The position numbers and the translations under genes are program-made. Below the pieces are notes generated by a model. The model made no database searches. It was given only the letters and a program-made list of their open reading frames with translations, and was not told the origin of the DNA. Below, one piece after another: positions 3,961 to 15,862 of a stretch of 32,000 bases of DNA; position 1 is the stretch's first letter; each line of letters opens with the position of its first letter. The DNA is taken from the NCBI GenBank assembly GCA_020830965.2, contig JACCFC020000005.1, forward strand, positions 107,049 through 139,048, written 5' to 3'. This DNA is from Neisseriaceae bacterium TC5R-5. Its GTDB lineage: Bacteria > Pseudomonadota > Gammaproteobacteria > Burkholderiales > Chromobacteriaceae.

Positions 3961-6900
3961 TACGCACCCTCCTGACCTTCATCCTGCTTTTTTTAGCGCT
4001 GGCGGCCGCCGCCACCGGTAGCACCAGCGACCCGGCGCAAGCCCTGCTGGCACAGGCCAGACTCTGGCAATCCTTAAACCACCGTGACGAAGCACAACAA
4101 GCACTCGCCAAACTACACCAACTGGCTGCGCTCAGCCCGGCAGTACAAGCCGAAGCCTTGGCCTTGCAAGCGATGCTGCAACTGCAAAACCAGCAGCTAC
4201 AGCCAGCCAGCCAGACACTCAAGCAACTCAAACAGCAATACCCGCACTCTGCTGTCATCCATAAGGTCGAACAGCTGCAACGCGTCCTCGGCAGCCAGCA
4301 TGCGCAACTGCTGCAAGCACGGGCCCTCGCCCGCAGCGGCAAAACCGATGCTGCCATCGCCGTACTGGACGCGCTGTATCAAGGCCCGCCACCAGATGGC
4401 GAATTAGCACTGGAATACTGGTCACTGGTCGTCCGCAGCCCCAATAAGGGCTGGCAACGCGCTCACGCCGGTTTGAGTAAACTGCAACAAGCCACACCGG
4501 ACAACCGTAGCTATCAACTGGCGCTGGCCGACCTCTATCTCTACCAACCGCCAGCCCCACCCACCATCTTTGCCACCCTCCAAACCCTGACCCTCTACCC
4601 GGACAGCCGTAAATCCGCACTGAAAACCTGGCGCCGCGCCCTGCTACAACTTGAACAGCACGCCCAGCCAAACTGGTTTAACGCCTATCTGCGCGAAGTA
4701 CCGGATGACAGCAGCGTCGCACAGCATCGCGATCGACTGGCCGCCCAAGCCGCCAGGCAACGCGCCCTATTGGCTGACCCCGGCTATCGCGCCCGGCTAG
4801 CAGCCAGCAAACAACTGGATAACAATCAGCTGGCTGCGGCCGAACGCAGCCTGGAACAGGCACAAGTCCACTATGGTCAAGAAGCCGATGTCCTGGGCAA
4901 CTGGGGACGACTGCGTGCAAAGCAGGGACAGTATCAACAAGCCATCGCCTTCTATCGTCAGGCACAGCGCCAAGACAAACAAAATAGGCAATGGTCACAA
5001 GCTCTGGTCGACAGCTATTTCGAGCAACAGCTGGCGCAAGCCGCACGCGCAATTGAGGCCAACAACTTTAAGCGAGCCGAACAGCATCTGCAGCAGGCAG
5101 CCAAACTGCGCCCCCACGCCATTGAGCTCACCCTCAGTCGTGCGCAACTGGCCGAGGCCCAGCAGCAACTCGCCCTCGCCTGGCGTGACTATCACGACGT
5201 GCTGACACGCGCCCCGGCTAATGCTCAGGCGCTAGCCGGGCTGATCCGCCTTTACCTGCAACAAGGAGAGGCCAGCCAAGCGAGCGCCTATCTGGACAAC
5301 CTGCCCAAGCAGCAACGCCATCTGCTAGGCAGCGCCTACCCTGCCGCCCAAGCCAGTATCGCCCGCCAGCAAGCGGAGCAATTACTAGCCAGCGGACAGC
5401 GCGCACTCGCCATCAAGGCACTGCAACAAGCCGTCGCCCTACAAGCTCAAGACCCATGGAACCGACTGGCCTTAGCCAAAGCCTGGCTAGCAGACGGGCA
5501 GGCGGCCAAAGGCGAAGCGGTATTGCAAGCCCTGCTAAACACCCCGCAAGCGGATAGCAACACCCGCTACGCCTACGCCTTATTCCAAAGCAGCCAAGAG
5601 CAAAACCAAGCCGCACTGCTGACGCTGGAACACATCCCCACTACCGAACGCAGCGATAGCATGGCGCAACTGCAGCGCCAACTCTGGCTGCGTGAAACCC
5701 TGCGTCTGGCCAGCGCCGAAAATGCCCATGGCCAGCCCCAAGCCGCGCAACAAAGATTGCAACACGCCAGCCAACGCTTTGCCGACGACCCGGCACAGCT
5801 CAGCGAACTGGCCAGCGGCTGGCTGCAACTGGGGCCACGCGAACCGGCACTGGCACTGATGCAAAAGGTTTATCAACAACACCCGGACAAGGAATACACG
5901 CTGCGCTACGCCAGATTGCTGCTGGACGCACAACAAAGCACGGCACTGCTTGCGCTGCTGGCTCAATGGGATCACCAGCAAGCCGCTCCCCTCACCCCCG
6001 CCCAACAAAGCGAACTCACCGCCATCTACAGCGGTCTCGCCCTGCTCAAGGCCAGCGCGGCACGCCAGCAAGGTCAGGACGAGCAAGCGCGCGAACTGCT
6101 CGACCAGGCGCTGATCGCCGATCCGCAACAAGCTGACTTGCTGCGCGAACGCGCCGAACTCGACATCAGCCAACAACAATGGCAGCGCGCCGAACAAAGA
6201 CTGCAACTGGCACTGCAATACAAGCCCCAGGATGACGAAGCCAAGCTGCTGTTACTAGATAGCTATCGCCAAACCGGTCAATGGGCCGCACGTCAGCAAC
6301 TGGCACAAACCCTGCTCAATGAACGGCCACTGCGCAGCCTGGATTATCGGCTACGGGTATTAAACCGGCTCAGCGAGCAGGACGACCCCCAACTCAGCAC
6401 ACAAGCCCTCGATACCATGCAGCAACAAGGAGAAAGCAGCCCTGCACTATTCGGCCTGCAAGCCGAACGCGCACTCAAGCAACAACAGGCCGATAGCGCG
6501 CTGAAGCATTATCGCCACAGCTTTAGCCCCACCAGCGGCCTCAGCCAACAACCGCTCGTCAGCAATAGCATGCTACCCGGCCAGGCCGCTCTCGCCAGCG
6601 AAGTACCGGCAATAGGCCAGCCCCCCAACAGTCAGACCGCCTTACAAACCGTCAGCAGCGAAAGCCAACAACTGGCTGATCTGCACGCAAGCTATGCCGC
6701 ACTGCTGGATAAACGCACCGGCACGGTGCAAGGTGGGCTGGATTGGAGTTTTCGCGGCGGCAGTACTGGCACACCGGGGCAATCACAGTTGGCGATGTGG
6801 CAAGCCCCGCTACTGCTGCAAATACCCGGCCCGGCCAATGGGCAATACTTCTTGCGCAGCGACTACACCAGCCTCGACGCCAAAAGCCTGCAAAGCAGCG

Positions 6901-7850
6901 ACAGTTACGCGATACAACGCTTTGGCGCCATCCTGGCTTGCCGCGACCAGGTCGCCTGTGCCAAACAGGCCGGACAGCAGCAAAGCCATGGTCAAAGCAT
7001 CGGTGCCGGTTTTGCTAACGATGACTGGCGCGTTGATCTTGGCCACACACCGCTGGCCTTTCCCGTCAGCTACTTCGTCGGGGGCCTCAAACACTTCGGC
7101 AAAATCAATCAACTCAACTACAGCATCGACATCGCCCAACGCCCGCTCACCAGCTCACTGCTCAGCTACGCCGGCACCCGCGACCCCTACACCGGCGAGA
7201 CCTGGGGCGGCGTCCGCAGTCGCAGCCTCAGCACAGGGCTAGGCTATGATCAGGGTGAAGCGCTAGGGGTGTGGAGTAATCTTGGCTATCAGCAGCTGAC
7301 AGGCGAAAACGTCGCCCGCAATCGTCGCCTGAGTATGATGGGAGGGGTGTACTGGCGCATACACAAAGACGACACCCACCGCCTGACCGTGGGTATCAAC
7401 AATATCAACTTCTGGTACCAGAAAAACCTCAGTGAATTTACGCTGGGGCAAGGCGGCTACTACAGCCCGCAAGCCTATCACTCGCTATCCGTCCCCATCA
7501 GCTACGCGCTGCGCAATGAACGCTGGAGCACGCTATTCCGCTTCGCCCCCTCGCTCTCCTACGCGCGGGAAAACAGCACCCCGTTCTACCCGACCCGGCC
7601 CGATCTGCAACAGCAAACCGGTAACCCGCAATTCAGCAGCAGTAGCGGCCCCGGCAAAGGCGTATCCGCCAGCACCGCTTTTGAATATCAGCTTAATCCC
7701 CGGCTGGTGCTGGGCGGCCAACTGGAATACCAATACTCCCCCCTCTACCAACCCGGCCATGCCCAGCTCTATCTACGCTACAGCCTGGCCCCGGCGGCAC
7801 AAACGCTACCTTTCCCGGTAGAACCCCTCGTGCCCTATACGAGTTTTTAG
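3951..7850 (+). CDS. bcsC: Cellulose synthase outer-membrane/TPR subunit BcsC
   Basis: The product is 1299 aa with an N-terminal signal peptide and a long Ala/Gln/Leu-rich TPR-like region. The C-terminal ~350 aa show alternating aromatic beta-strand patterning ending in ...YTSF, typical of an OM barrel terminus. It overlaps the bcsZ end by 10 nt. Confidence 0.9.
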   Translation: MSLIRTLLTFILLFLALAAAATGSTSDPAQALLAQARLWQSLNHRDEAQQALAKLHQLAALSPAVQAEALALQAMLQLQNQQLQPASQTLKQLKQQYPHSAVIHKVEQLQRVLGSQHAQLLQARALARSGKTDAAIAVLDALYQGPPPDGELALEYWSLVVRSPNKGWQRAHAGLSKLQQATPDNRSYQLALADLYLYQPPAPPTIFATLQTLTLYPDSRKSALKTWRRALLQLEQHAQPNWFNAYLREVPDDSSVAQHRDRLAAQAARQRALLADPGYRARLAASKQLDNNQLAAAERSLEQAQVHYGQEADVLGNWGRLRAKQGQYQQAIAFYRQAQRQDKQNRQWSQALVDSYFEQQLAQAARAIEANNFKRAEQHLQQAAKLRPHAIELTLSRAQLAEAQQQLALAWRDYHDVLTRAPANAQALAGLIRLYLQQGEASQASAYLDNLPKQQRHLLGSAYPAAQASIARQQAEQLLASGQRALAIKALQQAVALQAQDPWNRLALAKAWLADGQAAKGEAVLQALLNTPQADSNTRYAYALFQSSQEQNQAALLTLEHIPTTERSDSMAQLQRQLWLRETLRLASAENAHGQPQAAQQRLQHASQRFADDPAQLSELASGWLQLGPREPALALMQKVYQQHPDKEYTLRYARLLLDAQQSTALLALLAQWDHQQAAPLTPAQQSELTAIYSGLALLKASAARQQGQDEQARELLDQALIADPQQADLLRERAELDISQQQWQRAEQRLQLALQYKPQDDEAKLLLLDSYRQTGQWAARQQLAQTLLNERPLRSLDYRLRVLNRLSEQDDPQLSTQALDTMQQQGESSPALFGLQAERALKQQQADSALKHYRHSFSPTSGLSQQPLVSNSMLPGQAALASEVPAIGQPPNSQTALQTVSSESQQLADLHASYAALLDKRTGTVQGGLDWSFRGGSTGTPGQSQLAMWQAPLLLQIPGPANGQYFLRSDYTSLDAKSLQSSDSYAIQRFGAILACRDQVACAKQAGQQQSHGQSIGAGFANDDWRVDLGHTPLAFPVSYFVGGLKHFGKINQLNYSIDIAQRPLTSSLLSYAGTRDPYTGETWGGVRSRSLSTGLGYDQGEALGVWSNLGYQQLTGENVARNRRLSMMGGVYWRIHKDDTHRLTVGINNINFWYQKNLSEFTLGQGGYYSPQAYHSLSVPISYALRNERWSTLFRFAPSLSYARENSTPFYPTRPDLQQQTGNPQFSSSSGPGKGVSASTAFEYQLNPRLVLGGQLEYQYSPLYQPGHAQLYLRYSLAPAAQTLPFPVEPLVPYTSF

Positions 7851-7863
7851 GAAAGACCACATC

Positions 7864-8247
7864 ATGCTCAAGCCCTGCTGTCAGCTCCTTTTTACTCTAT
7901 TGCTGACCGCCTGCGCCCATCCCCCAGCCACCCCGGCACAACAAAGCCTGGCGCAAGCGCGGGCCGAATACTGGCGCTCCCCCTACCAACCGGCGGCCAT
8001 CAACCAACTAGCTCTACAACTGGTACAAGCTGGCGATAGCGATACCGCACGGCTGCTCTGGTACCGCGCCCTACGCATCGCCCCTGATCGCGACGATATC
8101 CGCGCCAATCTGCTGCTATTAGAAGCAGGCACTCGCCAACTAGACCAGAGTGCCACCGATCCGCTCAGCCCAGCCAGCAGCAAGTCAAGCAAGCCACCCC
8201 CACCGCTACCGGCCCCCTGGCAACGCCTGCCACAGCACAGCCCTTAA
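7864..8247 (+). CDS. Small putative lipoprotein with one TPR-like repeat and a proline-rich tail, co-oriented 13 nt after bcsC
   Basis: A good SD (AGGAAAG) lies 7-13 nt upstream of the ATG. The lipobox is LLLTAC at the end of a hydrophobic leader. A TPR-like stretch (AINQLALQLVQAGDSDTARLLWYRALRIAPD) and a tail PASSKSSKPPPPLPAPW follow. I recognise no family. Confidence 0.55.
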   Translation: MLKPCCQLLFTLLLTACAHPPATPAQQSLAQARAEYWRSPYQPAAINQLALQLVQAGDSDTARLLWYRALRIAPDRDDIRANLLLLEAGTRQLDQSATDPLSPASSKSSKPPPPLPAPWQRLPQHSP

Positions 8248-8318
8248 GAGCCTGATCCAGCGTTGCGCCTTGGCTCAGTTGCTCTTCGAGCTTTTGTTAG
8301 CCGCTCTTAGCGACACCA
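8238..8318 (+). repeat. Correia-like MITE, copy A (short variant: 39-bp internal deletion and missing AACAAAAC core of the left TIR)
   Basis: CCTGATCCAGCGTTGCGCC/TTGGCTCAGTTGCTCTTCGAGCTTTTGTTAGCCGCTCTTAGCGAC aligns with copy D (15741-15862), except that D positions 15781-15819 are absent. That missing segment is flanked by GCGCC direct repeats in D. Boundaries are approximate. Confidence 0.7.
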
Positions 8319-8362
8319 GCGAAGAACCTGTGCCAATATCAATTTGGCATTAATTTAAAGCA

Positions 8363-8706
8363 ATGATAGGATCACAAGCAAAATTCACAACCAAAGAAAA
8401 GCAATGCGATACTGGCGTCGAAAAAGCCTTATATGACTGGGTCGCCCCCAGCTTGTACTACGTTTTTTTACACCGGTTCCACCGGTTTGGACGGCATATG
8501 ACCCGGATGATATTTGGGCAGAAGTACAAGAGAAGCAGCGCAAAGAACGGGAAGCCGGCTGCTGCCGACAGTGCTTCATCCGTTTGCGCCGCTGGCGCAT
8601 CAAAAGAGTGCTGCGCTCGGAATGGGCCAAAATTAAAGAAGTATTGAAGAAAGCCCCGTTTGAGTACCAGGGCAAGCTCCCAGAAGATTATCCATTTGAT
8701 GACTAG
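8363..8706 (+). other. Candidate small gene split over two frames: ATG 8363 in frame 2, then a protein-like open frame 1 from 8437 to TAG 8704-8706. It may be a frameshifted pseudogene, a homopolymer error or a -1 frameshift gene
   Basis: Frame 1 is open for 89 codons with no ATG (…TPVPPVWTAYDPDDIWAEVQEKQRKEREAGCCRQCFIRLRRWRIKRVLRSEWAKIKEVLKKAPFEYQGKLPEDYPFDD*). The two frames meet at a T7 run, zero-frame codons GTT TTT TTA at 8462-8470. I recognise no family and there is no clear SD at 8363. Confidence 0.25.
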
Positions 8707-10367
8707 TGCTGACAGCCATTATTGGCGGCAACGATGCCGCCATTGGGCGAGGTATAACCCAAGCAACCGAGTATGGTATCGAATAGTTGTACATGCCGTA
8801 AGGTTTTACCAGCACGCTGCTGAGCCGCTAACTGTTCAAAACCATGGCGCTGCTGCGGGCTAGCTAGGTACTTATCGGAAGCCCATACCATGATGGGCAC
8901 GCGAAACTGTTCAGCAGGGGCCAACTGACGTGGTGTGCCATGCAGATGCTCATTTTCAGCAATCGATTCGCCATGGTCAGCCGCATAAAACACGATCGCC
9001 TTCTTATCCCGCAACTGATCAATCACCTTGCTGATAAACGCATCGGTATACAGCACGCTATTATCGTAAGCGTTAATCAATTGTGCCTTGCTACAGAAGC
9101 TATCCACGCTCAGACACTCCGGTTGATAACGAGCATAAGCTGGTGGATAGCGTTGTGAATATTGATAATGCGAACCTTTGGTATGCAGAATCACCAGATG
9201 TTTGCCTTGCGGGTAGCGTGCTAAGGAAGCCGCCACCTCCTCCAGCAATAGCATGTCATCAACCGGTTTGCCCTCATTACGCCCCTCCGCAGTAATCAAC
9301 TCGCGAAATGCATAATTATCTACCTCGGTTTTATTATAGAACCACACCTCGCTCTGCATCGCGAACAATTCCGAGCTAAAACCCATCTGCTTCAACACCG
9401 CAAAAACATTTTGCTCTTTCAAGGTGCGTTGCGGATTGTCTGCTGCTCCGCCTTCACGCACAAACATACAACGCAGCGATAATTTGGTAGAGGTGTCGCA
9501 AGACTCCCCGCGAAACACCAGTAGATTGCTCTCTCGTGACAACTTGGGGGTGGTATCCCGGGCATAGCCCAATAGGCCCAGATGATCCCAACGAGTGGTT
9601 TCACCGATGATAAAGACCATATAAGTGTCATTGATTCCCGCTGGTGAGACATAGCGAAAATGCTGCGCCGGGTCAAACAGCTTGCTCTGATTGTCGTATT
9701 CGTCGTAGCGGGTATAGGCAAACAAACCTAGTGCCGACAACCAATTAGCGGGCAGGTAAGCATGCACCACCCCACCACCATAGCTGGATAAATCGAGATT
9801 ACTACGTTGCGCCTGCTTACTATGCTCTTGATCCAACACCCGCAATGGTAGCCACACCAGCAACAAAGCCGCGAGCAAAAACAATAGCGACTTCAAACGC
9901 TGACCAGGCATTTTCAGCCGCTGCAGCAGTGTGTCACGCAACGGGCTTTGCCAAATACACAGCAAGGGCAACGCACTTAATAACACGGTCCACAGCACAA
10001 AATGCCATCCGATCACTTCGACAGACAAATCTATATCTGTCGTGATGACTGAAGCGATCACCCCGTAACCAATCACCACACCGAAAAAAGCGACGTAATA
10101 ACTGGCAGCAACGGAGGTCAGCAACAGCAGTGTGGCAGCAAAGCGATAAAACCACCGTCCGGCCAAAGAACACAGTTGCAGTAATAGGTAGGTAAACAGC
10201 ACAGCGGCCACGGCCTCCGCCAGCGTGGAGACAAGCTTGATCGCTAGCGGCTGCTGTAAAGATGTCAGCAAACGGCGATAAAAAACGGGAAGATTTAACA
10301 AAAGGCCAATATAGAGGCCCAACCATAAAGAGAGGTTTTTATGTAATAGTGATTTTATTTTATTCAT
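8703..10367 (-). CDS. eptB: Phosphoethanolamine transferase of the EptA/EptB family, closest by motif to EptB (Kdo-lipid A PEtN transferase)
   Basis: The product is 554 aa with an N-terminal multi-TM region (LYIGLLLNLPVFYRRL...) and a sulfatase-fold domain. Motifs are FIIGETTRWDHLGLLGYARDTTP, ESCDTSTKLSLRCMF, HTKGSHYQYSQRYP, YDNSVLYTD, YAADHGES and HLHGTP. These match my recollection of E. coli EptB better than EptA (GETSRAENF / SCGTATAVSVPCMF). Confidence 0.8.
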   Translation of the reverse strand: MNKIKSLLHKNLSLWLGLYIGLLLNLPVFYRRLLTSLQQPLAIKLVSTLAEAVAAVLFTYLLLQLCSLAGRWFYRFAATLLLLTSVAASYYVAFFGVVIGYGVIASVITTDIDLSVEVIGWHFVLWTVLLSALPLLCIWQSPLRDTLLQRLKMPGQRLKSLLFLLAALLLVWLPLRVLDQEHSKQAQRSNLDLSSYGGGVVHAYLPANWLSALGLFAYTRYDEYDNQSKLFDPAQHFRYVSPAGINDTYMVFIIGETTRWDHLGLLGYARDTTPKLSRESNLLVFRGESCDTSTKLSLRCMFVREGGAADNPQRTLKEQNVFAVLKQMGFSSELFAMQSEVWFYNKTEVDNYAFRELITAEGRNEGKPVDDMLLLEEVAASLARYPQGKHLVILHTKGSHYQYSQRYPPAYARYQPECLSVDSFCSKAQLINAYDNSVLYTDAFISKVIDQLRDKKAIVFYAADHGESIAENEHLHGTPRQLAPAEQFRVPIMVWASDKYLASPQQRHGFEQLAAQQRAGKTLRHVQLFDTILGCLGYTSPNGGIVAANNGCQH

Positions 10368-10599: not shown

Positions 10600-10680
10600 G
10601 CTTAAAGCCGCTAACAAAACCTCGAACAGCCGCTAAGTCAAGGTGTACCGACACAGACAGTACCAGTGATACTGCGCGGC
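10600..10680 (-). repeat. Correia-like MITE, copy B (truncated: one TIR plus ~75 bp, other end missing)
   Basis: CTTAAAGCCGCTAACAAAACCTCGAACAGC...GACAGTACCAGTGATAC aligns with the left half of copy C. Similarity is lost after ~10680. Confidence 0.65.
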
Positions 10681-10767
10681 ATAAAACGAGTGTCAGCACT
10701 TATTTACTCCACAACTGCTTGACAGCAGCAAACGTACTGGACGAAGCTACTGACAGCTTTACCTTAC

Positions 10768-10898
10768 CTTTAAGTGCCGCTAACAAAACCTCGAAGAGCA
10801 CCTGCGCCAAGACGCGCCGACGCAGATCCTACCAGTGGCACGGCAAGAAGGTACGACGCTGGATCAGGGGGTTTGTTAGCGGCTCTCACTCATAAGGA
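10768..10898 (-). mobile_element. Correia-like MITE, copy C (full length, inverted relative to copy D)
   Basis: The TIRs GCCGCTAACAAAACC (10778-10792) and GGGGGTTTGTTAGCGGC (10867-10883) are reverse complements. The reverse complement of C aligns with copy D at roughly 80-85% identity by eye over ~113 bp. The element ends about 10 nt before the toxin ATG. Confidence 0.8.
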
Positions 10899-10906
10899 AA
10901 ACAGAC

Positions 10907-11704
10907 ATGAGTCAAGCCAGTCAGGACGAAGGCATTAGTATTGTTATGAGCGCGCCGCAACTGGCCGCAGCATTGGCCCGGAAAACCCTTAGCCAAGGCG
11001 ATATCCTGAGTAATCGCTTTTGGGGAAGTTTAGAACTAGCTGGCGGCATTCTGGAGATGGTAGGCGCTGGCGCGTTATGTATCGCACCCGAACCCACTGG
11101 CGCAACTAAAGTAGGATGCGTCGCGATTGGTGCGCATGGCGCCGATACCATCGCCACTGGCGCACGTAAAGTCTGGACCGGCGAAGATAGCAGAAGCCTG
11201 ACACAGCAAGGCGTCATCAAGCTGGCCGAAACAATGAAGGCAAACCCTAGCCAAGCTGGGAATATCGCCATAGCCGTAGACATGTCTGTACCAATCGGAC
11301 TCGCCAGCATGGTAAACGCCGCACGTGTCAGCAGCATAACTTTGGGACGGTTTAGAATTTCAGAACACGAGGCAAAAAGCCTTGGCGGAAGAGGTGGGCA
11401 TACCCTTGCCAAGCATGTCGGACAAACCAAAGAAGAGATGTTAGCAAGACTTGAAAAAGAAAAAGACCTATTTAAAGTCTCATCATTTTATAGTAGAAAA
11501 TTAGCAGAATGGGGAGTATCTGAAGTCCTTCTAAAAAGATCATCAGAAATTAGCTCATGGGCTAAATCATCCTCTACTCGCCCTTTAGAGATAGAAGAGG
11601 CGGTTGGAAAAGTAGTAGGACATGGAATAAACAGAGGCAAAGATAATTTTAAGGAAATATACAATGGCATGCCTTATTTTGTCTTAACGGCATACCCGAA
11701 GTAA
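10907..11704 (+). CDS. Stand-alone polymorphic-toxin-like protein: unassigned glycine-rich hydrophobic N-terminal region plus C-terminal bacterial RNase-A-like (CdiA-CT type) nuclease domain
   Basis: SD AAGGAAA lies 7-13 nt upstream of the ATG. The C-terminal signature GGHTLAKHVGQTKEEMLARL (nt 11393-11452) and terminal LTAYPK (T-x-Y) match my recollection of the CdiA-CT RNase A-like family (H-T-[IL]-x-[KR]-H-V-G-K/Q-T; catalytic His and C-terminal Thr/Tyr). I see no signal peptide, PAAR, Rhs/YD, FHA, LXG or MIX features. It is followed 8 nt later by a CdiI-like ORF. Confidence 0.7.
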   Translation: MSQASQDEGISIVMSAPQLAAALARKTLSQGDILSNRFWGSLELAGGILEMVGAGALCIAPEPTGATKVGCVAIGAHGADTIATGARKVWTGEDSRSLTQQGVIKLAETMKANPSQAGNIAIAVDMSVPIGLASMVNAARVSSITLGRFRISEHEAKSLGGRGGHTLAKHVGQTKEEMLARLEKEKDLFKVSSFYSRKLAEWGVSEVLLKRSSEISSWAKSSSTRPLEIEEAVGKVVGHGINRGKDNFKEIYNGMPYFVLTAYPK

Positions 11705-11712
11705 GGAAAAGT

Positions 11713-12009
11713 ATGGAAGATACTCGAAAGCTATACCCGAATTTACACCTTCTTTTTGGCGCTTACCTAATGCAAGACTGGACTCTATGGGGAAGCACAA
11801 TAGAAGATGTAATACTTCGCTACAAAAAGGACATGAATCAAGAAGAGTGCCAAGCAGCCATTCATGAAATAGATGAATTCATTAACAGGCACCCTAATGA
11901 TTTAAATGAATACTATGAAGAGCTATTTGGAGAGGAAATTTCAATAGAAGCATTTGGTTATTCGCCATCTTCTTTTCTTGAATATTTAAAATATACTATC
12001 TCAACATAA
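11713..12009 (+). CDS. CdiI-like immunity protein (contact-dependent growth inhibition immunity family)
   Basis: This is a 98-aa acidic protein. The N-terminal block YPNLHLLFGAYLMQDW resembles the Y-P-x-L-x-x-F-x-G-x-Y-F-H-Q-D-W hallmark of a CdiI family. It has SD GGAAAAG upstream, starts 8 nt after the toxin stop, shares the toxin 3' half's AT-rich composition, and is followed by a terminator. Confidence 0.65.
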   Translation: MEDTRKLYPNLHLLFGAYLMQDWTLWGSTIEDVILRYKKDMNQEECQAAIHEIDEFINRHPNDLNEYYEELFGEEISIEAFGYSPSSFLEYLKYTIST

Positions 12010-15736: not shown

Positions 15737-15862
15737 ACACCTTAGCGCCGCGAACAAAACCCCTGATCCAGCGTTGCGCCTCCTTGCCGTACGACTGGTA
15801 CTGTCTGCGTCGGCGCGCCTTGGCTCAAGGCTCTTCGCGGTGTTGTTAGCGACTCTTAGCAC
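15737..15862 (+). mobile_element. Correia-like MITE, copy D (full length)
   Basis: The TIRs are CTTAGCGCCGCGAACAAAAC (15741-15760) and GTGTTGTTAGCGACTCTTAG (15840-15859). The interior CCTGATCCAGCGTTGCGCCTCCTTGCCGTACGACTGGTACTGTCTGCGTCGGCGCGCCTTGG is shared with copies A, B and C. It lies 30 bp downstream of the zapE stop and ~130 bp upstream of the bcsE start. Confidence 0.8.

What the first reader, a model, noticed from the sequence alone, without database searches (positions are those of the whole stretch)
10907..11398. Unassigned glycine-zipper-like hydrophobic N-terminal module on the toxin, with no recognisable secretion tag
Residues ~38-86 (FWGSLELAGGILEMVGAGALCIAPEPTGATKVGCVAIGAHGADTIATGA, nt 11018-11164) and ~117-139 (AGNIAIAVDMSVPIGLASMVNAA) are small-residue-rich (Gly/Ala), moderately hydrophobic segments with GxxxG/A spacing. 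There is no cleavable signal peptide, and I recognise no PAAR, MIX, LXG, VENN, PT-TG or DUF1020-type trafficking motif. This N-terminal part has host-like GC, unlike the toxin tip. That is the pattern expected of a conserved delivery/carrier domain onto which variable tips are swapped. It could be a new trafficking or membrane-entry domain.
Basis: inference. Interest (0 to 1): 0.6.

Follow-up and report, generated by a model that had tools for sequence, protein, structure and literature searches.

The report
Reusable helical-hairpin carrier on RNase toxin
The front 163 residues of this small RNase toxin are a conserved glycine/alanine-rich helical module, distantly related to the little-studied DUF4225 domain, that many bacterial competition toxins reuse in front of different killing tips and that probably helps the tip cross the victim's inner membrane.

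Summary
Window 10907-11704 (+) encodes a 265-aa protein. Residues 164-265 are a CdiA-CT-type RNase A domain (PF18431), and a CdiI_2 immunity gene follows at 11713-12009. Residues 1-163 match no Pfam or NCBIfam model. They are Gly/Ala-rich, borderline hydrophobic and have host-like GC (0.55 against 0.37 and 0.35).

The module is real and modular, with two layers. A 35-aa leader occurs only in stand-alone proteins, and every intact stand-alone relative seen carries an RNase A tip. A roughly 110-aa core (aa 36-145) also sits directly after the Rhs DPxG cleavage motif and after an eCIS DUF4157 domain. That core is joined to 27 unrelated C-terminal tips, including RNase A, Ntox50, TreTu and ParB-like.

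The core is a remote relative of DUF4225 (PF13988), published as a periplasm-acting lytic T6SS toxin domain. So it is not wholly new, but its position ahead of a toxin tip did not turn up in the papers I found.

AlphaFold2 predicts a long helical hairpin with an invariant P-E-P-T tip.

The genome holds four mosaic copies. One lies in a Mu-like prophage. All five carrier genomes tested have a T6SS.

Best reading (about 0.5): a self-translocation, membrane-breaching carrier like the Tde1 N-terminus, with the leader acting as the loading tag.

Earlier scan notes describe similar hydrophobic segments ahead of Rhs toxin tips on other DNA.

The parts
10676..10773 (+). Upstream block carried with the cassette. 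It includes TTGACA at 10719-10724 and may be the cassette's own promoter or leader.
   Evidence: The block around TTGACA aligns in all four paralogous cassettes of the genome; the longer stretch from 10676 is shared only with the C88 copy. It was not flagged by the sigma-70 consensus scan, so promoter function is inferred only.
10770..10886 (+). Copy of a ~115-nt dispersed intergenic repeat, inserted between the conserved upstream block and the ribosome-binding site of the toxin gene.
   Evidence: It is absent at this position in the other three cassettes. At least 40 copies at 81-86% identity occur across the genome. Its 20-mer GCCGCTAACAAAACCTCGAA occurs 4 times in the window against 0 expected.
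10907..11704 (+). Toxin gene, 265 aa: N-terminal carrier module plus C-terminal RNase A-like domain. AAGGAA ribosome-binding site at 10894-10899.
10919..11011 (+). Leader, aa 5-35 (GISIVMSAPQLAAALARKTLSQGDILS). Predicted as a short strand plus helix. Found only in stand-alone relatives and proposed as the loading tag.
   Evidence: HMM coordinates show that relatives starting at the protein N-terminus cover model positions 1-35, while Rhs- and eCIS-embedded copies start at about position 36. Q18, A20, A21 and L23 are >=90% conserved. AF2 predicts strand 10-14 and helix 16-24.
11012..11341 (+). Core, aa 36-145: a DUF4225-like Gly/Ala-rich helical module. Hairpin helix 1 is aa 30-59, the P-E-P-T tip is aa 61-64 (nt 11087-11098), and helix 2 is aa 65-91. 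Less confident helices follow at 98-109, 114-124 and 131-145.
   Evidence: AF2 with 59 sequences gives pLDDT 75-83 over aa 31-90. P61 and D80 are invariant, and G47, P63, T64, T67, K68, G92 and T99 are >=90% conserved across 55 diverse cores. Relatives hit PF13988 at profile positions ~28-141.
11326..11395 (+). Junction and linker, aa ~141-163 (RVSSITLGRFRISEHEAKSLGGRG). This is where identity between paralogues and GC content both drop.
   Evidence: Sliding DNA identity between window and C88 falls from 87-92% (mostly) in the first 300 nt to 48-65% after CDS nt ~420-480. Window against C67 falls from ~75% to ~50%. GC profile.
11396..11701 (+). RNase A-like toxin tip, aa 164-265. It carries an 11-residue deletion relative to all close homologues.
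   Evidence: PF18431 at E 5.7e-20. Foldseek finds 5E3E, the CdiA-CT of Y. kristensenii, at probability 1.00. The deletion is visible in the alignment.
11713..12009 (+). Cognate immunity gene, 98 aa, CdiI_2 family. It is the only immunity-like gene of the cassette.
   Evidence: PF18593 at E 3.6e-17. The same two-gene layout occurs in the named genomes and plasmids examined; the downstream gene of the Acetobacter copy has no Pfam assignment.

Best explanation
**What it is.** Residues 1-163 are a two-part carrier of a polymorphic antibacterial toxin.

- **Core (aa 36-145).** This is a conserved Gly/Ala-rich helical module built around a long hairpin with an invariant P-E-P-T tip. It is a remote relative of DUF4225.
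- **Where the core travels.** It is part of the delivered fragment. In Rhs proteins it starts a few to a few dozen residues after the DPxG self-cleavage motif, so it sits with the toxin tip in the piece that cleavage there is expected to release.
- **Proposed action of the core.** After delivery into a rival's periplasm, the hairpin inserts into or permeabilises the inner membrane. That lets the attached tip reach its cytoplasmic target, here an RNase A-type nuclease. The comparison is the N-terminal glycine-zipper region of Agrobacterium Tde1.
- **Leader (aa 5-35).** It is present only in stand-alone proteins. It most likely replaces the Rhs/PAAR part as the element that loads the protein onto a secretion machine, most probably the T6SS this genome encodes.
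- **Self-protection.** The producer is protected only by the CdiI_2 protein, which neutralises the RNase.

**Shown here:**
- conservation of the module
- its two-layer architecture
- tip polymorphism
- the remote DUF4225 relationship
- the predicted hairpin
- one immunity gene per cassette
- presence of T6SS in carrier genomes

**Inferred:**
- membrane insertion or translocation
- the loading role of the leader
- T6SS as the export route
For: - **Position of the core.** About half of the N-terminally extended relatives have it a few to a few dozen residues after an Rhs core-end motif (YYGARYY...DPxG[L/R/K]). One has it after an eCIS DUF4157 domain, and P0149 has it after RHS repeats. A domain delivered together with the tip is more likely to act in the target than in export.
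- **Tip diversity.** There are 27 unrelated tail clusters. The tips with a clear assignment (RNase A, and TreTu, published as an EF-Tu ADP-ribosyltransferase) act on cytoplasmic targets; Ntox50, ParB_N-like and PF15605 were also recognised but their targets are unknown to me.
- **One immunity gene.** Only one immunity gene follows each toxin where I looked. It is CdiI_2 in most stand-alone cassettes examined (unassigned in Acetobacter) and MafI2 after an Apibacter core-Ntox50 protein. This argues that the core is not an independently lethal toxin in these proteins.
- **Link to a membrane or envelope activity.** The core is related to DUF4225. One DUF4225 member lyses cells only from the periplasmic side and has a 3-TMH immunity protein (PMC9765294). 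That ties the fold to the periplasmic face of the envelope.
- **Predicted structure.** AF2 gives a 30+27-residue helical hairpin at pLDDT 75-83. Helix 1 is borderline membrane-competent (Kyte-Doolittle 1.65, Eisenberg <H> 0.62).
- **Experimental precedent for the mechanism.** The Tde1 N-terminus is necessary and sufficient for adaptor binding and secretion. Its G39xxxG43 motif is needed for inner-membrane permeabilisation and entry of the DNase into prey (PMC10240207).
- **T6SS co-occurrence.** TssC was found in 5 of 5 carrier genomes tested: own, G643, G799 (Achromobacter), G800 (Acetobacter aceti) and G801. A family-spread class sample gave 37 of 199. The own genome also has 3 hcp genes.
Against: - No experiment on this family exists. 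Membrane insertion is inferred from composition, a medium-confidence model and analogy.
- The hairpin carries conserved charged and polar residues (E50, K68, H77, D80). It has no canonical GxxxG and is only borderline hydrophobic. It could equally be a soluble helical domain, or even a catalytic one.
- The second half of the core (aa 118-145) is poorly modelled (pLDDT <50).
- The only characterised DUF4225 protein is a toxin in its own right, not a carrier.
- No adaptor (DUF4123, DUF1795 or DUF2169), hcp, vgrG or PAAR gene lies beside any stand-alone cassette examined.
- One paralogue sits in a prophage tail module, another next to an inovirus, and others lie on plasmids and islands next to TA genes. 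An intracellular role is therefore not excluded.
- The T6SS co-occurrence rests on five non-independent genomes from T6SS-rich lineages.
- One tail family (GHxAVGI...LLGNNCSTT, 5 representatives) is unassigned and could be periplasm-acting.
Confidence: 0.5

Rival explanations
1. The module is itself a second toxin. It would be a DUF4225-type periplasm-acting, lytic or membrane-damaging domain fused in front of the RNase, making this a two-warhead effector.
For: - Relatives score above Pfam's DUF4225 threshold, and the match always covers the same profile region.
- DUF4225 from Vibrio parahaemolyticus lyses E. coli from the periplasm and is a T6SS effector (PMC9765294).
- Nearly invariant K68 and D80, plus conserved E50 and H77, could form an active site.
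Against: - No second, membrane-type immunity gene accompanies any cassette or Rhs tip examined. There is only a single downstream gene (CdiI_2 in most cases, MafI2 in one).
- The published DUF4225 effector needs a 3-TMH immunity protein encoded directly downstream.
- The window protein does not reach any reportable score against PF13988.
- Bona fide DUF4225 is C-terminal and terminal. Here the domain always precedes another toxin.
Confidence: 0.2
2. The whole module is only an export or loading domain. It would bind Hcp, VgrG, PAAR or an adaptor in the producer and play no part in crossing the target's membrane.
For: - The module sits at the N-terminus of small orphan effectors, like MIX, FIX and RIX markers and the Tap1-binding region of Tde1.
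- DUF4225 effectors are typically encoded next to orphan hcp genes.
- All five carrier genomes tested have TssC.
Against: - In Rhs proteins the core lies behind the self-cleavage site, inside the delivered cargo. There the Rhs, PAAR or VgrG parts already provide loading.
- The same core follows an eCIS DUF4157 marker.
- A pure loading tag would not be expected in that position or across different machines.
Confidence: 0.15
3. The pair is an intracellular toxin-antitoxin, addiction or abortive-infection module of mobile elements. The hydrophobic N-terminus would serve as a membrane anchor or sensor, and nothing is exported.
For: - Cassettes are orphan two-gene units on plasmids, in a Mu-like prophage, beside an inovirus, and in islands next to PIN/MazE and Phd antitoxin genes and resolvases.
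- No secretion gene is adjacent.
- The cassette is rare and patchy: 3 of 401 genomes of the order, and 0 of 9 in the family apart from this genome.
Against: - The core is shared with Rhs and eCIS polymorphic toxins.
- The tip and immunity are CdiA-CT/CdiI families.
- There is no PADLOC match.
- Tip and immunity diversification on a conserved N-terminus is the signature of interbacterial toxins.
Confidence: 0.08
4. The toxin is released by lysis or carried by phage-tail particles. It would then act like a bacteriocin, or like tail-tube cargo, with the module serving import.
For: - One intact paralogue lies between the tail tube (FII) and tail-chaperone genes of a Mu-like prophage. This echoes DUF4225 genes lying downstream of hcp, the tube homologue.
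- A Paraburkholderia copy sits divergently next to a Phage_lysozyme gene flanked by two small unassigned genes, which could be a lysis cassette.
Against: - tblastn found no copy in 50,697 phage records.
- Most cassettes are not in phage contexts.
- There is no receptor-binding domain.
- The prophage copy has the same upstream block as the chromosomal copies, as expected for a moron.
Confidence: 0.05

Closest known systems
DUF4225 (PF13988) T6SS effectors, e.g. the DUF4225 protein of Vibrio parahaemolyticus CFSAN018764 and Pse9 of Pantoea agglomerans (PMC9765294; bioRxiv 10.64898/2026.08.01.741415)
   Same: - There is remote sequence homology over profile positions ~28-141. Two relatives of the window's core pass Pfam's threshold.
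- Both are found after Rhs and in small orphan proteins.
- Both are linked to T6SS-bearing bacteria.
- The activity is tied to the periplasmic face of the envelope.
   Different: - The window protein itself does not score against PF13988.
- Here the domain is N-terminal or internal and is always followed by another toxin tip.
- There is no multi-TMH immunity gene.
- Published DUF4225 is described as the terminal toxin domain, not as a carrier.
Tde1 of Agrobacterium tumefaciens: N-terminal glycine-zipper region plus Ntox15 DNase (PMC10240207)
   Same: - Both are a nuclease effector with an unannotated Gly-rich helical-hairpin N-terminus and a C-terminal nuclease neutralised by one cytoplasmic immunity protein.
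- This is the only experimentally supported model in which such an N-terminus both loads the effector and permeabilises the prey inner membrane.
   Different: - Tde1 has consecutive GxxxG motifs. This module has none.
- Tde1 is encoded with its adaptor Tap1 (DUF4123) and VgrG1. These cassettes are orphans.
- No Ntox15 tip was found among the 149 best relatives.
- Homology to Tde1 was not tested.
CdiA-CT/CdiI of Yersinia kristensenii (PDB 5E3E) and the modular cytoplasm-entry domains of CdiA-CT regions
   Same: - The tip and immunity belong to the same families (PF18431, PF18593; Foldseek probability 1.00).
- The logic is the same: an N-terminal sub-domain of the delivered fragment, interchangeable between tips, is thought to mediate inner-membrane crossing.
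   Different: - There is no CdiA filament, no VENN motif and no CdiB.
- The entry module here is a different, unrelated sequence family.
Pyocin_S-type inner-membrane translocation domain shared by pyocin G, colicin-like nucleases and some T6SS effectors (PMC9040868)
   Same: It is a conserved pre-toxin domain placed directly before nuclease tips and shared between different delivery systems.
   Different: - There is no Pfam Pyocin_S match.
- Composition differs: here a hydrophobic Gly/Ala-rich helical hairpin.
- Dependence on FtsH or TonB is unknown.
prePAAR/TMD effectors such as Tse6 and class II Rhs effectors with Eag chaperones
   Same: Hydrophobic Gly-rich helices on nuclease-type T6SS effectors are proposed to insert into the prey inner membrane.
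   Different: - There is no prePAAR motif and no PAAR domain, and no gene of any kind lies adjacent apart from the immunity gene.
- In Rhs relatives the module lies after the Rhs core, not at the N-terminus.

Membership tests
DUF4225 (PF13988) | Scores above Pfam's gathering threshold (25.9 bits) against the family HMM | tested here: not met
   The window protein gives no PF13988 hit even at E<=1. The own-genome scan found only an unrelated 15.7-bit hit. Relatives P0175 (31.2 bits) and P0149 (26.9 bits) do pass, and about a dozen more match the same profile region below threshold. The relationship is therefore transitive and remote, at superfamily level.
DUF4225 (PF13988) | The domain is the C-terminal, terminal toxin of the protein | tested here: not met
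   Here it occupies aa 36-145 and is followed by a ~100-aa RNase A domain. In intact relatives it is followed by tails of ~90-200 aa; relatives with shorter tails are mostly short or partial sequences.
DUF4225 (PF13988) | A small multi-TMH immunity gene lies directly downstream (Imm4225 type) | tested here: not met
   Only one downstream gene was found in all cassettes examined: a soluble CdiI_2 (one unassigned case in Acetobacter), or MafI2 in one Rhs-type case.
DUF4225 (PF13988) | Toxic and lytic when targeted to the periplasm | not testable with these tools
   This needs expression of aa 1-163, with and without a PelB leader, in E. coli K-12.
Tde1-type N-terminal glycine-zipper translocation region | Consecutive GxxxG motifs in the N-terminal helices | tested here: not met
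   There is no G...G anywhere in aa 1-159. Only small-xxx-small runs occur, such as G75-A79-A83.
Tde1-type N-terminal glycine-zipper translocation region | Small nuclease effector with an unannotated Gly-rich helical-hairpin N-terminus and one immunity protein for the nuclease | tested here: met
Tde1-type N-terminal glycine-zipper translocation region | Encoded with a DUF4123 adaptor and a VgrG | tested here: not met
   Neighbours in the window are eptB-like and bcsG genes. No adaptor, vgrG or hcp gene lies beside any of nine other cassettes.
Tde1-type N-terminal glycine-zipper translocation region | Sequence homology to the Tde1 N-terminus | not tested
Indirectly, no Ntox15 tip occurs among the 149 best relatives.
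CdiA-CT/CdiI polymorphic toxin (RNase A type) | RNase A-like toxin domain with a CdiI_2 immunity gene | tested here: met
   PF18431 at 5.7e-20 and PF18593 at 3.6e-17. Foldseek finds 5E3E at probability 1.00.
CdiA-CT/CdiI polymorphic toxin (RNase A type) | The toxin is the C-terminus of a CdiA filament, demarcated by VENN, with CdiB | tested here: not met
   The ORF is 265 aa with a stop just upstream. There is no VENN motif and no haemagglutinin-repeat hit.
Known pre-toxin and trafficking domains (PT-TG, PT-VENN, PT-HINT, LXG, PAAR, Pyocin_S, DUF1020) | Match to the Pfam model | tested here: not met
   No Pfam family matches aa 1-163 at E<=1. None of these families appears among 149 relatives.
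prePAAR, MIX and RIX T6SS markers | AARxxDxxxH motif; hRxGhhYhh and companion MIX motifs; Arg-rich N-terminus | tested here: not met
   Regular-expression searches were all negative, and there is 1 Arg in the first 35 residues. These were motif checks only, because no HMMs for MIX or RIX were available.
Polymorphic-toxin carrier / pre-toxin module (generic) | The same module is fused to unrelated C-terminal toxin tips, each with its own immunity gene | tested here: met
   27 unrelated tail clusters occur among 82 representatives. Tips include RNase A, Ntox50, TreTu_C, ParB_N and PF15605. Immunity genes seen include CdiI_2 and MafI2.

The most novel reading that the evidence does not exclude
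The DUF4225-like hairpin may be a general, self-sufficient inner-membrane translocation module. T6SS Rhs toxins, eCIS cargo and orphan effectors would all share it to carry cytoplasm-acting tips across the prey inner membrane. In that case the published 'DUF4225 toxin' would be the same membrane-breaching device without cargo. The 35-residue leader of the stand-alone proteins would be a new cargo-loading tag for T6SS, or for a phage-tail-like machine, given the paralogue encoded directly after a tail-tube gene.
Probability: 0.33. Interest if true: 0.65.

Novelty: new variant of a known kind. Interest (0 to 1): 0.45.

Why it matters
How nuclease effectors delivered by T6SS and related machines cross the target's inner membrane is still largely open. 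Only a few entry devices have experimental support:
- CdiA-CT entry domains
- the Pyocin_S domain
- Tse6 transmembrane domains
- the Tde1 glycine zipper

This module has several useful properties for that question:
- It is compact (~110 aa) and widespread (431 clusters at 50% identity).
- It sits in the delivered fragment of Rhs, eCIS and orphan toxins.
- It occurs in front of at least 27 different tips.
- It is linked by remote homology to a domain known only as a periplasm-acting lytic toxin.

If it is a translocator, three things follow. It would give a tractable minimal system: a 265-aa protein with one immunity gene. It would re-interpret DUF4225. It would also improve annotation of the many 'RNase A-like domain-containing proteins' and Rhs tips.

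If it is a second toxin, or only a loading tag, the finding is ordinary.

Tried and rejected
- **Independent DUF4225 seed set.** I tried to collect one for a profile-profile test. PF13988 scans found nothing in 151 genomes of the order or in 401 of the class. The DUF4225 link therefore rests on Pfam hits to relatives only.
- **Phage records.** tblastn of the module against 50,697 phage records found no match.
- **Other libraries.** PADLOC gave no match. PHROGs matched only the RNase part.
- **Solved structures.** A profile search of PDB sequences gave only noise (E>0.6). Foldseek of the model matched only the RNase domain.
- **First AlphaFold2 run.** With 37 close homologues the module did not fold (pLDDT 25-45). 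The second run, with 59 more diverse sequences, gave the hairpin.
- **Profile search in the 110-350 aa range.** Nearly all hits carry RNase A tips, and none is annotated PF13988.
- **Apparent non-RNase tips on the full leader form.** P0052, P0085 and P0177 looked like leader-bearing forms with other tips. I rejected them because their tails look like out-of-frame, Arg-rich translations.
- **Pantoea agglomerans T6SS secretome preprint.** It does not mention an RNase A-type effector.
- **Promoter and terminator.** The consensus scan found no terminator and did not flag the conserved TTGACA block as a promoter.
- **Co-occurrence via a large genome sample.** This was not feasible because the module is too rare (3 of 401). 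I tested five known carrier genomes instead.
Full report
**1. What is at the coordinates**

Window 10907-11704 (+) is a 265-aa ORF. It starts at the first start codon after an in-frame stop and has an AAGGAA ribosome-binding site 8 nt upstream.

Pfam assigns only aa 164-264, to RNAse_A_bac (PF18431, E 5.7e-20). The next gene, 11713-12009, is a CdiI_2 immunity protein (PF18593, E 3.6e-17). Residues 1-163 match nothing in Pfam at E<=1; NCBIfam gives only a far-sub-threshold YadA hit at aa 65-147 (13.2 bits, cut-off 750).

The flanking genes are an eptB-like transferase and bcsG. No secretion gene lies nearby in the window.

- The module is rich in small residues: 43% G+A+S+T, against 28% in the RNase part.
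- The two named segments are the two hydrophobicity maxima, with Kyte-Doolittle scores of 1.65 and 1.59. Both are borderline for a membrane span.
- There is no signal peptide and no prePAAR, PAAR, VENN or MIX motif.
- GC is 0.547 in the module, 0.373 in the RNase tip and 0.350 in the immunity gene.

One correction is needed. There is no canonical GxxxG anywhere in aa 1-159, only small-xxx-small runs.

**2. The module is a real, conserved family with two layers**

The 164-aa piece alone finds 431 cluster representatives at E<=1e-3 among 1.84 billion proteins. I built an HMM from close homologues and mapped it onto the 188 proteins retrieved by then. This showed two classes:
- Proteins that start with the module cover model positions 1-163.
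- Proteins with N-terminal extensions of 40-770 residues mostly cover only positions ~36-145; a few with 55-97-residue extensions (e.g. P0069, P0074) still include the leader.

So the module is a leader (aa 5-35, G-x-x-V-V-L-S-x-x-Q-L-A-A-x-L) plus a core (aa 36-145).

In about half of the extended proteins the core begins within a few to a few dozen residues of an Rhs core-end motif (YYGARYY...DPxG[L/R/K]). P0149 has RHS repeats by Pfam. P0186 has an eCIS DUF4157 (eCIS_core) domain in front of the core.

Across 55 diverse cores, P61 and D80 are invariant. G47, P63, T64, T67, K68, G92 and T99 are at least 90% conserved.

**3. Tip polymorphism**

Among 82 representatives with at least 85 residues after the core, all-against-all BLAST gives 27 unrelated tail clusters. 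The RNase A type accounts for 49. The rest are 3 small clusters and 23 singletons.

Recognisable tips are RNAse_A_bac, Ntox50, TreTu_C, ParB_N-like and PF15605. Most others are unannotated.

However, every intact protein that carries the leader has an RNase A tip. This was true in two independent searches limited to similar lengths. Three apparent exceptions have tails that look like frameshift products.

**4. Polymorphism inside this genome**

The assembly (3.5 Mb, 148 contigs) has four copies:
- the window copy
- an intact copy on contig C67
- a frameshifted copy on C88
- an internally deleted copy on C1

All four have RNase A tips and CdiI_2-like immunity genes.

Between the window and C67 copies, identity is 71% in the N-module, 46% in the tip and 52% in immunity. 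The first 61 residues of the C88 copy are 95% identical to the window copy.

Sliding DNA identity drops from roughly 75-92% to about 50-65% at CDS nt 420-480, which is window ~11326-11386. This is where GC falls. It is the mosaic pattern expected when foreign tip-plus-immunity units recombine onto a resident carrier.

All four copies share an upstream block containing TTGACA.

**5. Relationship to a known family**

Pfam's DUF4225 (PF13988) matches the core region of many Rhs-type relatives, always at profile positions ~28-141 of 165. P0175 scores 31.2 bits and P0149 26.9 bits, both above the 25.9-bit threshold. P0158 scores 25.5 bits, and about a dozen others have E between 1e-4 and 3e-2.

These same proteins match the window's module at whole-database E-values of 1e-11 to 1e-13. 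A profile built from Rhs-type cores retrieves the stand-alone RNase proteins at 1e-39 to 1e-30.

The module is therefore a remote member of the DUF4225 superfamily, although the window protein itself does not score.

The only functional study shows that a Vibrio parahaemolyticus DUF4225 protein has these properties:
- It is a T6SS1 effector encoded after an orphan hcp.
- It lyses E. coli only when sent to the periplasm.
- It is neutralised by a downstream 3-TMH protein.

That paper describes DUF4225 as a C-terminal toxin domain found behind PAAR, VgrG, Hcp, Rhs and CdiA parts (PMC9765294). The six papers that mention DUF4225 turned up no description, in those I consulted, of it standing in front of another toxin domain.

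**6. Structure**

With 37 close homologues AlphaFold2 could not model the module. With 59 more diverse sequences it predicts the following:
- strand 10-14 and helix 16-24, which form the leader
- a long hairpin of helices 30-59 and 65-91, at pLDDT 75-83, joined by the P-E-P-T tip
- three weaker helices

The RNase part matches 5E3E. Nothing in the PDB matches the module by sequence or by fold.

**7. Context and export route**

Elsewhere the stand-alone form is an orphan two-gene cassette in variable regions. The examples are:
- Cupriavidus, with a tandem pair of cassettes
- Achromobacter
- Paraburkholderia, beside a Phage_lysozyme gene flanked by two small unassigned genes, possibly a lysis cassette
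- Brenneria
- Acetobacter aceti, in an island with resolvases and a PIN/MazE pair
- a Contendobacter MAG
- Pantoea, Ralstonia and Rhizobium plasmids

In this genome the C67 copy lies between the tail-tube and tail-chaperone genes of a Mu-like prophage. The C88 copy lies between a Tlde1-type effector gene and an inovirus.

No adaptor, hcp, vgrG or PAAR gene is adjacent anywhere.

The module is rare. It was found in 3 of 401 genomes of the order, and in none of the 9 other genomes of the family.

The own genome has one T6SS sheath gene and three hcp genes. All five carrier genomes I could test have TssC, against 37 of 199 in a family-spread sample of the class. This is suggestive only, because the carriers are few and not independent.

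**8. Mechanism**

The strongest argument is positional. In Rhs proteins the core lies behind the self-cleavage site, so it travels with the tip into the target. A domain there is unlikely to serve export.

Further points support a membrane role:
- Only one immunity gene accompanies each toxin, and where it could be assigned it is a CdiI_2 or MafI2 family member.
- The tips with a clear assignment act in the cytoplasm.
- The nearest characterised relative acts from the periplasmic side of the envelope.

Together these make a membrane-breaching or translocation role the best reading.

Agrobacterium Tde1 provides an experimental precedent for a Gly-rich N-terminal hairpin that both binds the loading adaptor and permeabilises the prey inner membrane to admit a nuclease (PMC10240207). 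The leader, which is absent from Rhs-embedded copies, is the natural candidate for the loading element.

I put this reading at about 0.5. The rivals are:
- a second lytic toxin (0.2)
- a pure loading domain (0.15)
- an intracellular TA or defence module (0.08)
- lysis- or tail-mediated release (0.05)

**9. Novelty and verdict**

The toxin tip and immunity are known families. The idea of a self-translocating N-terminal region is known, and the core is a remote DUF4225 relative.

What appears undescribed is a DUF4225-like module used as a reusable pre-toxin carrier in front of many tips, with an extra leader in a widespread stand-alone RNase family. I class this as a new variant of a known kind, of moderate interest.

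Earlier notes of this scan describe comparable hydrophobic segments ahead of Rhs RNase tips on other DNA and read them the same way. They share no sequence words with this core, and I did not test them.

Noticed in passing
window 10770-10886 (also 15744-15858 on the minus strand; partial matches at 10607-10626 and 8285-8304): A ~115-nt dispersed intergenic repeat has at least 40 copies at 81-86% identity across the genome. One copy is inserted between the cassette's conserved upstream block and the toxin's ribosome-binding site, so it could affect expression of this copy. The element type (MITE or REP-like) was not determined.
   Followed up: partly
window ~11636-11650 (aa 244-248 of the toxin): The window's RNase domain lacks 11 residues, a predicted beta-strand of the type 'xVxVVLKxxx', that all close homologues have. 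AF2 confidence is low at aa 244-257. The conserved His165, His170, Arg181, Thr261 and Tyr263 positions are retained. Whether this copy is still active is unknown.
   Followed up: partly
L017 (G000:C67:9000-28900), toxin at 9202-10092 (-), immunity at 8845-9192 (-): An intact paralogous toxin-immunity pair is inserted between the tail-tube (Phage_tube FII) and tail-assembly-chaperone genes of a Mu-like prophage (Portal_Mu, sheath, tape measure). The position parallels DUF4225 effector genes lying directly downstream of hcp.
   Followed up: partly
L018 (G000:C88:1-9000): A frameshifted third copy of the cassette lies between a Tlde1-domain (L,D-transpeptidase-like T6SS effector) gene with a small hydrophobic downstream gene and an inovirus-like prophage (Zot-type assembly protein). 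This looks like a small effector island.
   Followed up: partly
L005 (G000:C1:139700-142942): A fourth copy is internally deleted. Residues 1-81 of the module are joined out of frame to the last ~70 residues of an RNase tip, and a truncated immunity gene 79% identical to the C67 one follows.
   Followed up: no
L011 (Cupriavidus campinensis CP097330.1), 6702-9126: Two toxin-immunity cassettes of this family sit in tandem, as in the orphan arrays of polymorphic toxin loci.
   Followed up: no
L015 (Paraburkholderia, JBNDKV010000004.1), 6266-7792: A Phage_lysozyme gene flanked by two small unassigned genes (132 aa and 149 aa), possibly a holin-endolysin-spanin lysis cassette, lies divergently next to the toxin gene. 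It could hint at lysis-dependent release in that strain.
   Followed up: no
L024 (G131:C1:1234644-1237883): A weak match to the core profile (E 5e-7, positions 9-101) lies inside a 7107-aa open frame of another genome of the order. This may be the same module inside a giant exported protein.
   Followed up: no
relatives P0146, P0159, P0173, P0179, P0180: A recurrent unannotated tail family follows the core. It carries the motifs GHxAVGI...WFDL...LLGNNCSTT and a hydrophobic C-terminus. It may be a Cys-dependent enzyme whose site of action is unknown.
   Followed up: no
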